From Perna viridis (taxonomy: Eukaryota): a stretch of DNA of 64,000 nt. The notes beneath the pieces were generated by a model. It had not been told where the DNA came from. It ran no database searches and saw nothing but the letters and a program-made list of their open reading frames with translations. How positions within the stretch are numbered: position 1 is the stretch's first letter; each line of letters opens with the position of its first letter. Shown here one piece after another: positions 37,131-53,300 of this stretch. The position numbers and the translations under genes were made by a program. The stretch lies in the NCBI GenBank assembly GCA_037379345.1, contig CM074513.1, forward strand, positions 40,110,885 through 40,174,884. The letters run 5' to 3'.

Positions 37131-37637
37131 GCCCCGTGCAGGTCCGGGTGTTAAAAGAATAGGCCTGCAGCAGCGCTAAGCTTGTCGTATAAGGCGACTA
37201 AATAGTGCTCAGAAACCTAGCCGGGGGCTAGGCGCTCTGCCCACAGAGCAACTGGGATGTGTGCCCCAGGTGGTGGAATGGGGTACCCCTGTCGTGTTAC
37301 ATGCTGGGGTTGTCAGGCTATAATACGGAAAACCTGACCGCAAACCATAGTGATGCACCGTGTTGGGAAAGATGCCACGTTCCTCGCACGTTAAAGAACC
37401 CTGCTGTGGTATTCGATAGGAGTAGGAAACTTTGCGCTCCGCCACAGGAGGCTAAATTGCCTGACCTTACCCAATCCCCCCTTTTTCCAGTGGCAATCAA
37501 AATTTGTCGACCCTATAATCGTTGTGACCCATCCTTTTTTTCATTGCATGTTCATTTTATCATCCATTTCATGTTCATTGTCTGAATATAGCTGAAATAT
37601 TGCTGCTCGGACGTTAAACCCCAACAAACAAAAAAAA
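37131..37637 (+). mobile_element. Full-length Meta-domain SINE-like retroposon with structured non-tRNA head (copy A)
   Basis: 12-bp TSD TATTTTCTAACA (37119-37130 and 37638-37649). Meta-like core CCGTGT..GCACGTTAAAGAACCC (37386-37401). LINE-type tail GAAATATTGCT..CGTTAAACCCC followed by (CAAA)n/poly-A. CpG-rich. Second copy at 52794-53298. Confidence 0.9.
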
Positions 37638-38301
37638 TATTTTCTAACATGAGACAGTGTTGTTTATTATGGTCAATGTCATTATACATTTACCATGTAT
37701 CTTGGTTATTGCTTTAATATGGCAAACTTTTGTCTGTGGGATTGTTCTAAAGTAATAATTTGACTAAAAACAAGCTAACCTAAGTAAGTGTAGCTTTAAC
37801 AGGAAGTCAGGATCCTAGCTGTTTCCTTTCACAATAATGGATAATCTATTTTTGTATTCTAAGACATTTTTTCTGTGTTAATGCAAAAAAGGGAGTGATC
37901 TTTTTGCTTCATGTGGAGCATACAAGATATTTCCAGGACAGGGAATTGTTGTGGCTGTGGTGTTTTGTCTTATTGGTCATTTAGTCTGCTTGGACTTACG
38001 GTAGCTGAATGTCTGAATGGTGATTGAACATTAATATTCATTGAGATAGTAATTGAACGTAACTGACAGTAGATGTAGTAAGCTGGAACCATCCAGATTA
38101 AGAAAATCCTTTGCTTGCTGTTGGATTTTTTTTGTGTTGATATACATGGTCTTACAACACAGGGTCACTTTGCTCTTGAAGAAACCCTCCTATTTTGTAT
38201 GTTTAATCATTTATTTCTTTTCTTGCAGGATTTCTAGTTCTGGTGATAAATCTTCAATAGTGGCTTCAGTACAGGAATCCCCACAGGAGGAAAAAGGAAA
38301 G

Positions 38302-50300: not shown

Positions 50301-53300
50301 AAATATTCTGTCCACTGCCTTTTACCCAAAAATTAGTGCTTTAGTACTTTTCAGTGAATGAAAATAATTAACATTAGTTGTTTCTTGGTAACTCATTATC
50401 TAATGAAAAGTAATGAAATAACATGAATATACACAATATTTTGCTATTTTTGATGGCCAAGTAATATTTTTAGCCTTTCATTTTTGTTCAGGGTTTCCCA
50501 AAAATTGTTAAGTTCAGTTGCAAGTAGATTTAAATGTTATTTATCTTGGCTTTTTGATCAAATATTAACATTGAGATACATGTATTAAACAAATCCATTT
50601 ATTGTAGAAAGAGAAGTATTCTGTATTGTTGATTAATATTGGTCTATAGATTTGTCAATAGTGACTTGTGCTTAATCAAAAATTTATGAAATTTGTAGTT
50701 CCAGTTTATCTGATCTAAGTCAAAATTTTTTAATACCTATTGAGTTTTACAACATATGTCAACCATAAACAGAACTGTTCTAACAATATTCTAGATATAA
50801 ATGGCCATATCATTTAGTTCCATCAACTCTAAATTGACACTTCATCTGACAAAATTAGCACTATTCCATTGGCCTGTTGTAAGCAAATTCCCTGACAGGC
50901 AAGTCCAAGTCATACAGAACTTGCCTGCTGGACCATCTTCTTCCTGTTCTTCGCCATTATACTTGAATGCCAGTCTCCTCAACAAATCTGGCCATCTTCT
51001 GTAGGTCTTCCACAGGTCCATACAGTTTCTCTGTGATGGGGGTTGGTTTATCCCATATCTTCTCTTTCTGTGCCTGGTGTAACTTGCACGTCTGCAGAAA
51101 GTGTTCTGTATTCTGCTCTGCTTCTCCACATGGACACACAGGTGATGGTATGACCTTCAAAACTCTGTACAGATGTTGGTTGAGGCTGTTGTGTCCTGTC
51201 CTGAGCCTGAAGATTGTAAACTTGACCATCTGATTTTGAGTGTTCAGTGTTCTGTTCAACATATCATAAAGACAAGTAAACTTCATTCATGGCCTGTTCA
51301 GTATTGGCAAAACTTGCCCCCTTGACCAGTTGAAGAAATTATGTTATAACTACCCTTGGGACATTTTAAAGAGTTTTCATAATTTATCCCATTCATTATT
51401 CTTCCTTATTTTCTGCTTTGTACCTAATCAAATAATCCCTGTGTTAGAATAATGATATTATTTTATGACTGCATGAAATCCCTCTAAATCAGGAATGTTT
51501 AGTCTTTGCCAGTTTAATGACGTAGATTGTCAGTTAGTTCCGTATAAAAAAGCTTTCCAAAATAAATAATCTCTTCCTTATGCAGATAGTTTACAAGTTA
51601 TTTTCAGCATCAGTTTAATTTAGCTTTTTGTTCTTTTTATTGTTTTAGACTCTCACAAAGAAAGAAAACAAAGGGTGTGAAAGTCCCGAACCTGATATGG
51701 ACCCATATGGAAATTCATTAACACCAGATGAGAAGTATACACGGCTTAACGAAGAATATCAGAGAGCAATGCATCAAAATTCTATGAGAGTAAGTGGAAC
51801 ATTGTATGAAGGTTCTTTTAATTTGATATTTATCGTAACTTGTGCACTGTCATCAATATTGATGGTGTAGATTGACGTCAGTAAAACAGAAATGCGGTTA
51901 AAAGTTTCCCTGATTACGGCGGCTCAGCCGATGGAGAAGTTTTTAATTGTTAGCATTATTAAGTTCTGTGTGGTCTCCGTTTAATTTATAATGATAGCTT
52001 TGTAGATGCAGAATCAATCATTAACTAAGTGTAGGAGTTGCATAATATCAGGACCATATAATTTCTGATATTGGTGCGTCCATTAGAAAAATCATAATGA
52101 AAAAGCTGTCATAGGAGACTATATGAGCTTAAATTAGAACAATGAATAAAAATAGGCTGCCATTAAAGGAATCTAATCGATTACGTCACATGCCTTATCA
52201 TGTTCAGGCTAGAAATATTTTTATGAAGACTCCATGGAATGCTGAATTAAAGGCTGCTTGAAATTTAGGACAATCAATAATTGATTATCGAATGTGCTAT
52301 TGCGCAATATTGGAAGAGAAGAATGGTTGTGGAAAAAATATAATGAGACAACTGGCCCATTATCAATCCATATAGGTTTTCCAATAAATTTATGCATAGA
52401 AAAGGTTAGCATAGGCTTCTGGTTATACTAAATCAACAAAAAAAGCATGGGTTAAAAGTACATCTATCAGAACATGGGTGTTGTTAAGACACCAGGGAAC
52501 GAACTTTGATATGGCAGCATTGACAGATTGATGTTGAGATCAGACTTTGGTGGTGTCAATTTGGACATTGGTCATTATTCTTCTTATATGTTAGCCCTAT
52601 TGTTGTTGTTTACCTAGTCTTCCCTGACCTTGTATATATGTAAATATGTAAATAATAACTACAAAATATGACATTTAATATGAACTATGAATTTCTTTGA
52701 AAGAACTCAAATTTTGAAATTAGACTCAAAGCAAAACTTTGTTTGAACATTTCACAGATTACTAGAAGGCTTTTAACAATGTTCTTCAGTCAAATGTTTG
52801 TTTGTTGGGGTTTTACACCGGAGCAGCCAATATTTCAGCTATATTCAGGCGATGAACATGAAGTGGATGATAAAATGAACATGAAATGATGATGAAATGA
52901 AAAATGGGATGGAACACAAGGATAATGGGGTCGAGAAATTTTGATTGCCATTGGAAATAGGTGGGTAGGGTCGGGCAGTTTAGCCTCCTGAGGTGGAGCC
53001 GTATGGTTCCTACTCCGGGAGAATACCACAATAGGGTTTTTTAACGTGCGAGGAACGTGGCAGCTTTCCCAACACGGTGCACCTTTGCGGTCAGGTTTTC
53101 CGTATTATAGCCTGACAACCCCAGCATGTAACATGCCAGGGGTACCCCATTCCAACACCTGGGGCACACAACCCAGGTACTCTGTGGGCCGAGTGCCCTA
53201 GCCCCCGGCTATGGTTCTGAGCACTATTTAGTCGCCTTTTACGACAAGTTTAGTGCTGCTGCAGGCCTATTCTTTTGACACCTGGACCTGCACGGGTCTC

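What the first reader, a model, noticed from the sequence alone, without database searches (positions are those of the whole stretch)
37131..53298. Inverted SINE pair brackets exactly the MEF2 DNA-binding exons: predicted 472-nt circRNA encoding a truncated 135-aa MEF2
Seen: copy A (+) ends about 590 nt before acceptor 38229, and copy B (-) begins about 1 kb after donor 51789. The pre-mRNA could therefore form a ~500-bp imperfect duplex looping out exons of 127+204+141 = 472 nt. Back-splicing 51789 to 38229 reads ...ATG AGA|GAT TTC TAG, so the native ATG would give 133 aa of MADS+MEF2+alpha region plus DF-stop. Known: inverted intronic repeats promote back-splicing and A-to-I editing, and MEF2 fragments lacking the activation domain act as dominant negatives. 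Inference: TE insertions may have created a circRNA or exon-skipping control on this gene. Two copies in this arrangement could also be chance.
Basis: partly seen in the sequence, partly recalled or inferred. Interest (0 to 1): 0.7.

Follow-up and report, generated by a model that had tools for sequence, protein, structure and literature searches.

The report
Chance inverted SINE pair in MEF2
Two copies of a very common mobile repeat sit in opposite directions in the introns of a mussel muscle-regulator gene (MEF2); they are predicted to be able to pair in the RNA, but they likely landed there by chance, and the RNA assemblies examined show only normal splicing.

Summary
The anatomy is real: two oppositely oriented ~505-nt retroposon copies (85% alike, each with its own target-site duplication) lie 591 nt before and about 1.0 kb after three exons (472 nt) of a bivalve MEF2 gene. 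Both are inside introns of the transcript, since spliced upstream exons end at 12554 and 24996. A back-splice would read 135 aa.

The arrangement is ordinary here. The family has at least 10,320 copies (about 17,000 by sampling), the two copies are of different ages (about 2% and 6% from their nearest relatives), and 25 of 75 random 10-kb stretches hold some inverted pair. For this gene, an inverted pair round some exon is expected in 9-14% of trials and one this close to splice sites in about 0.6%: unusual locally, expected tens to hundreds of times genome-wide.

Contigs of six RNA runs showed only linear MEF2 splicing, a weak test for rare circles. The third exon is mostly not DNA-binding, and circles of one or two exons give the same DF-stop truncation.

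Verdict: a chance pair of LP-SINE-like elements; at most a rare by-product circle; translated dominant negative about 3%.

The parts
37131..37637 (+). Copy A: full-length LP-SINE-like retroposon, young subfamily (about 2% from nearest copies), CAAA tail, 12-nt TSD
37131..37202 (+). Head of copy A resembling the Nimb-17 LINE 5' end of LP-SINEs (putative LINE-derived promoter); no tRNA, no B box
   Evidence: by-eye comparison with PMC4758252 suppl. Fig S2
52794..53298 (-). Copy B: full-length member of an older subfamily (about 6% from nearest copies), 11-nt TSD
12444..12554 (+). Upstream MEF2 exon spliced to acceptor 38229 (run X3); 5' boundary inferred from the 111-letter loose end
24565..24996 (+).
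38229..38355 (+). MEF2 exon with ATG 38302 (MGRKK...); its first 73 nt are an open frame matching a bivalve N-terminal extension
43008..43211 (+). MEF2 MADS/MEF2-domain exon (residues 19-86)
51649..51789 (+). MEF2 exon for residues 87-133 (end of the core and alpha/HJURP_C-like region)
55212..61077 (+).
47331..48919 (-). Antisense spliced contig inside intron 43212-51648 (pieces 48919-48787 and 47420-47331, GT-AG on the minus strand); one contig, depth 2.6, run X12

Best explanation
Two full-length copies of an abundant LP-SINE-like retroposon, of different ages, lie in opposite orientation in two introns of a mussel MEF2 gene, likely as independent chance insertions with no selected role. Shown: both are TSD-flanked insertions, both lie within the transcribed span, and the three enclosed exons are spliced linearly in the contigs seen. 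Inferred: a LINE partner inserted copy B first and copy A much later; when the upstream intron is still unspliced as polymerase passes copy B (15.2 kb later) the two arms would pair and could now and then bring donor 51789 to acceptor 38229, giving at most a rare, untranslated by-product circle and some A-to-I editing, without measurable effect on MEF2 protein.
For: 10,320 exact hits of one 20-mer in 723 Mb, 4,996 forward and 5,324 reverse, control 0. 18 copies of 300 nt or more in 75 evenly spaced 10-kb stretches, about 17,000 genome-wide (95% interval 10,300-27,400) and 1.5 expected per 64-kb window. Simulation on this gene's introns: inverted pair round some exon 9-14% (4-27% over the density range), exactly these exons 1-2%, both arms within 1,010 nt of splice sites 0.6%. 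25 of 75 random stretches hold an inverted repeat of 100 nt or more from some family. Copy A is 1.6-2.6% from 9 of 9 best relatives, copy B 5.7-6.6% from 9 of 9, A and B belong to different subfamilies. In one search (tables complete) 0 of 4 runs join exon 3 to acceptor 38229; 3 of 4 join upstream exons and the fourth contig starts at the junction. X10 and X12 contigs run through exons 1-2-3 in order and continue. The neighbouring MEF2 paralogue has no copy of the family within 40 kb examined. Mammalian circles tied to young transposons were judged mostly splicing by-products (PMC8516420 abstract and Discussion).
Against: For this gene taken alone, both arms within about 1 kb of splice sites is a 0.2-1.3% event, and including the ATG exon 0.06-0.4%. 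The duplex is long and stable in silico (457 bp). The 1.6-kb total distance and the 13-26 kb upstream intron meet both empirical cut-offs associated with human circRNAs (2,300 nt; 6,500 nt). Vertebrate MEF2A does yield validated circles (PMC10508632). Contigs drop rare variants, library types are not on record, the joint and loose-end tables were cut (107 and 566 rows not shown), and 31 letters at the start of the X12 contig were not displayed. The simulation assumes uniform insertion, but copies cluster.
Confidence: 0.75

Rival explanations
1. The pair drives enough back-splicing to make a substantial non-coding 472-nt circle that competes with linear splicing and lowers MEF2 mRNA (a recent, lineage-specific brake); or such an AUG-exon circle exists mainly because of the long upstream intron, with the repeats adding to it.
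For: Co-transcription of both arms; 457-bp duplex; only 2.07 kb between the arms once the two inner introns are removed; distances within human cut-offs, AUG circles abundant with long flanking introns; circMEF2A in vertebrates; thousands of circRNAs, mostly at low read counts, reported in oyster gonads (PMC13685108 passages).
Against: Contigs of X10 and X12 pass both sites unbroken and long contigs of X1, X3, X5 pass the acceptor; a well-covered back-splice would normally break a de Bruijn contig there (my knowledge of the method). The 2,300-nt cut-off holds for 45% of circles but also for 22% of non-circularising host exons, so it is weak evidence.
Confidence: 0.13
2. The elements act through their LINE-derived heads as promoters, not through a duplex: copy B, on the minus strand, would transcribe antisense across exon 3 into the intron, and copy A could give a proximal sense start.
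For: Head resembles the LP-SINE 'LINE promoter'. An antisense GT-AG spliced contig lies 3.9 kb downstream of copy B in its own direction. X2 has a contig over 37779-38226 just downstream of copy A.
Against: One contig at depth 2.6 in 1 of 3 RNA runs laid there, not linked to copy B; X2 has scattered intronic contigs elsewhere, as from pre-mRNA or DNA; promoter activity of LP heads is untested according to the paper that named them.
Confidence: 0.07
3. The circle is made and translated cap-independently into a 135-aa MEF2 that dimerises, binds DNA and blocks full-length MEF2.
For: The ORF is real on paper and covers the whole crystallised core 1-95; MEF2C 1-95 overexpression attenuated postnatal myocardial growth in mice (PMC5019174 passage).
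Against: No circle seen; AUG circRNAs showed no evidence of translation; the same DF-stop truncation follows from any phase-0 circle at this acceptor, so the ORF needs no selection; the pair is recent.
Confidence: 0.03

Closest known systems
Inverted-Alu/SINE-flanked circRNA loci (reverse-complementary matches in flanking introns; PMC6487579, PMC8516420)
   Same: Two oppositely oriented same-family SINEs in the introns flanking a 3-exon block, about 1.6 kb total from the splice sites, young and probably lineage-specific.
   Different: No back-splice junction shown here; a bivalve element of about 505 nt at about 1 copy per 40 kb.
AUG circRNAs (Stagsted et al. 2019, PMC6487579)
   Same: The predicted circle holds the annotated start codon, has a long upstream intron and an N-terminal ORF with a short tail after the junction.
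   Different: That class is defined by observed circles, is largely repeat-independent and conserved, and showed no evidence of translation; here existence and conservation are unshown.
circMEF2A1/circMEF2A2 of chicken and mouse (PMC10508632)
   Same: Circles from 5' exons of a MEF2 gene.
   Different: Validated by RNase R and Sanger sequencing, described as non-coding miRNA regulators, from exons 2-3 and 4-6 (chicken); whether either equals this exon set was not determined.
LP-SINEs of gastropods and bivalves (Matetovici et al. 2016, PMC4758252)
   Same: About 70-nt Nimb-17-like head in place of a tRNA, Nin/Deu-like core motif, AATATA before a short-repeat tail, variable TSDs.
   Different: About 505 nt against 256 nt for Sgl_LP; Mytilus is not mentioned in that paper's main text (0 occurrences); body not aligned to the published consensus.

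Membership tests
Repeat-driven circRNA locus | Reverse-complementary repeats in both flanking introns | tested here: met
Repeat-driven circRNA locus | Both arms inside one pre-mRNA | tested here: met
   upstream exons at 12554 and 24996 splice to 38229; downstream exons from 55212 by homology
Repeat-driven circRNA locus | Back-splice junction in RNA | tested here: inconclusive
   0 of 4 runs; linear order in X10 and X12, tables cut; contigs only, library types unknown
Repeat-driven circRNA locus | RNase R resistance; dependence on the repeats | not testable with these tools
   needs bench work
Repeat-driven circRNA locus | A-to-I editing in the duplex | tested here: inconclusive
   the differences listed inside copy A (4 places, one A>G) are also in the DNA run and come from other family copies; no locus-specific RNA contig over either copy was listed
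Translated circRNA | ORF across the junction | tested here: met
   135 aa in silico
Translated circRNA | Ribosome footprints or junction peptide | not testable with these tools
   no such data available
Non-autonomous retroposon (SINE) | Short, non-coding, high copy, variable TSD, simple-repeat 3' tail | tested here: met
   10 of 10 aligned copies share the 5' start and CAAA-type tail; TSDs of A and B; copy number
tRNA-derived SINE (Meta, V, Core, Deu, MD) | tRNA-derived head with A and B boxes | tested here: not met
   no tRNA, no B box by a recalled pattern, no meaningful Rfam hit
LP-SINE | About 70-nt head homologous to the Nimb-17_LMi 5' UTR | tested here: met
   by-eye match to the 'Nimb-17 homology' block of suppl. 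Fig S2; no computed alignment
LP-SINE | Partial Nin-DC/Deu domain and tail shared with other bivalve SINEs | tested here: inconclusive
   core motif at 37386 and tail at 37609 resemble BivaMD-SINE1; the paper's Fig. 3 alignment could not be seen
LP-SINE | Promoter activity of the head | not testable with these tools
   untested also in the defining paper
MEF2 (MADS-box type II) | N-terminal MADS plus MEF2 domain, conserved C-terminal motifs | tested here: met

The most novel reading that the evidence does not exclude
A recent insertion (copy A) completed an inverted pair with an older copy and created a new circular RNA from this mussel's MEF2 gene that is translated into a 135-aa DNA-binding, activation-less MEF2: a transposon-made dominant-negative switch young enough that alleles without copy A might still exist for comparison.
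Probability: 0.03. Interest if true: 0.75.

Novelty: new member of a known kind. Interest (0 to 1): 0.2.

Why it matters
As it stands it is an ordinary example of a known geometry and shows how often abundant repeats mimic a circRNA switch (a third of random 10-kb stretches here hold an inverted pair). If the circle proved abundant and dependent on copy A, it would be a dated, natural test of how transposon insertions create circRNAs in an invertebrate; if translated, a rare case of a circRNA-encoded dominant-negative transcription factor. Side results may be worth more than the finding: a large, recently active LP-SINE-like family in a mussel, and a bivalve-wide N-terminally extended MEF2 isoform made by a split ATG.

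Tried and rejected
Sequencing-run search: no holder on record as RNA; shares of 0.10-0.25 are about what the repeat alone gives and were not used as evidence. 6 of the 20 runs guessed to be RNA and 1 of the 3 others were laid. No junction-specific search of raw reads was possible; all runs are contigs. Editing: not readable, because family copies swamp copy A. Insertion polymorphism: DNA run X18 has contigs running through both ends of copy A and into the tail of copy B, with no empty allele among the rows shown; it may be the individual the assembly came from and the tables were cut, so this says nothing about the population. Proximal promoter downstream of copy A: X2 contig 37779-38226, but X2 has other intronic contigs; not taken as a start site. 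tRNA-SINE class: rejected. Supplements of PMC11481361 (8 files) gave no hit for two family motifs. Upstream exon that would supply the split ATG: 11 candidate AT|GTRAG donors in 1-38228 and 4 in the 30 kb before the window, none identified. An H-type pseudoknot in the head was considered; only one hairpin is supported by eye across families. Literature: no paper on a bivalve MEF2 circRNA or repeat-driven circles in mussels turned up in searches (open-access library only); the one supplement file held for PMC13685108 has no MEF2 entry; supplement file 1 of PMC4758252 and all figures could not be seen. Earlier scan notes: nothing near or by sequence.

Full report
Observation. The window holds one long inverted match: 37127-37632 against 53302-52797, 84.8% over 519 columns. 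Copy A (37131-37637, +) and copy B (52794-53298, -) each carry their own target-site duplication, 12 and 11 nt, so they are two separate insertions. Between them lie three AG/GT exons of 127, 204 and 141 nt; joining donor 51789 to acceptor 38229 gives 472 nt and, from ATG 38302, 135 aa ending in DF-stop. Copy A ends 591 nt before the acceptor and copy B starts about 1.0 kb after the donor. RNAduplex predicts 457 bp at -840 kcal/mol.

The gene. It is a bivalve MEF2 whose closest named proteins are from Mytilus. Eight coding exons give a 451-aa ORF with canonical splice sites. Residues 1-86 come from the first two exons; the third supplies the end of the crystallised core (PDB constructs 1-90/95) and an HJURP_C-like stretch, so the block is the core plus about 40 further residues, not exactly the DNA-binding exons. 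RNA contigs splice acceptor 38229 to exons ending at 24996 (X1, X5) and 12554 (X3).

The element. Ten aligned copies begin at the same position and end in a CAAA-type tail. There is no tRNA head. The first 72 nt resemble, by eye, the 'Nimb-17 homology' block in the supplement of PMC4758252, the LINE-derived head of LP-SINEs (section read); a core motif and the tail resemble BivaMD-SINE1 (PMC4824008 supplement part 1 of 4). I file it as LP-SINE-like. SINEs within bivalve introns, including palindromic arrangements, are described (PMC11481361 Results).

Chance. One 20-mer shared by both copies occurs 10,320 times in 723 Mb, evenly on both strands, a lower bound. Sampling 75 evenly spaced 10-kb stretches gave 18 copies of 300 nt or more, about 17,000 genome-wide, 1.5 per 64 kb; six hits lay in one stretch, so copies cluster. 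Placing copies at random in this gene's introns gives an inverted pair round some exon in 9-14% of trials, round exactly these exons in 1-2%, with both arms within 1,010 nt of splice sites in 0.6%, and with the ATG exon as well in 0.15% (ranges 4-27%, 0.4-4.7%, 0.2-1.3% and 0.06-0.4% over the density bounds). The tight spacing is thus uncommon for one gene named in advance, but at 1-3 x 10^-4 per exon block and an assumed 10^5 to 7 x 10^5 blocks, 10-200 such cases are expected from this family alone. Counting all families, 25 of 75 random stretches hold an inverted repeat of 100 nt or more. Against this, outside the dense cluster only 4 of 64 listed 20-mer hits had an opposite-strand hit within 16.2 kb (39 of 100 with the cluster); that count sees only copies with the intact 20-mer. 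Copy A differs by 1.6-2.6% from its 9 best relatives and copy B by 5.7-6.6% from its 9; they belong to different subfamilies, so the pair is only as old as the young burst. The adjacent MEF2 paralogue has no family copy in 40 kb.

RNA evidence. Six runs guessed to be RNA (of 20 listed) and one other run were laid, all as contigs. In one search, whose tables were complete, 0 of 4 runs showed exon-3 letters before acceptor 38229. In one search the X10 and X12 contigs (2,302 and 4,072 nt) carry exons 1, 2, 3 in order and continue; the joint and loose-end tables were flooded by the repeat and cut, and the first 31 letters of the X12 contig were not shown. From how de Bruijn contigs are built (my knowledge) a well-covered back-splice would break a contig at both sites and could not repeat the end of exon 3 within one contig, so an abundant circle is unlikely in these samples. 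A rare one is not excluded: contigs drop rare paths, and poly(A) libraries, if that is what these are, lose circles. Editing could not be read, since the differences over copy A come from other copies and appear in the DNA run too.

Mechanism. Shown: two dated insertions, co-transcription, linear splicing. Inferred: pairing needs the upstream intron to persist until copy B is transcribed 15.2 kb later; after the two inner introns are removed the arms are 2.07 kb apart, so occasional pairing and back-splicing are plausible. In human data an inverted Alu pair within 2,300 nt marks 45% of circles but also 22% of other host exons, and repeat-dependent circles are poorly conserved (PMC6487579 passages); circles tied to young transposons were judged mostly by-products (PMC8516420 abstract and Discussion). 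The truncated ORF needs no design: circles of one, two or three exons from this acceptor all end in DF-stop at 20, 88 or 135 aa, and AUG circles showed no evidence of translation.

Verdict. Chance pair without selected role 0.75; substantial non-coding circle 0.13; action through the elements' LINE-derived heads, for instance the antisense spliced contig downstream of copy B, 0.07; translated dominant negative 0.03. New member of a known kind; interest 0.2. Searches of the open-access library found no report on this locus; figures, one supplement file of PMC4758252 and subscription papers were not seen. An earlier scan note on a plant gene (e1-7303709) reached a similar verdict and is not independent support.

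Noticed in passing
window 38229-38301: The 73 nt before the MGRKK start are an open frame (ISSSGDKSSIVASVQ...) conserved in bivalves. NCBI models of four Mytilus species, three scallops, Mercenaria, Ruditapes and Mya include an isoform starting M-I-[SV]-S-S, and Dreissena has the same Met internally, which implies an ATG split across the acceptor and a 26-30 aa extension ahead of the DNA-contacting N-terminal arm. 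The two upstream exons found here end in TG and do not supply it; on the predicted circle this frame is closed by a stop.
   Followed up: partly
window 47331-48919, minus strand: Antisense spliced contig (GT-AG on minus strand) inside the MEF2 intron; one contig, depth 2.6, run X12; lies downstream of copy B in its direction.
   Followed up: partly
G000:C3:40178900-40188550 (L098, L100), minus strand: Second, divergent MEF2 paralogue (85% in the MADS exon) tail-to-tail with this gene, compact, same first three coding exons, no copy of this repeat family.
   Followed up: partly
window 37131-37637 and genome-wide: The repeat is an LP-SINE-like family with at least 10,320 copies and a young subfamily at 1-2% pairwise divergence; the head forms a hairpin whose pairing appears kept with compensating changes in the scallop Nimb-17-like head (by eye).
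   Followed up: partly
G000:C1:3351538-3529340: Dense cluster: 36 of the first 100 listed family hits fall in about 180 kb, in both orientations.
   Followed up: no
window 9139-9320 and 43261-43434: A second, older inverted pair (70% over 186 columns) inside the same gene, bracketing a different exon set.
   Followed up: no
window 12444-12554, 24565-24996: At least two alternative upstream exons; a third 5' end (31 letters, not displayed) is implied by the X12 contig.
   Followed up: partly
window 30490-30686, 38809-38962, 40455-40706, 44912-45269: Intronic minisatellites with units of about 42, 77, 48 and 68 nt.
   Followed up: no
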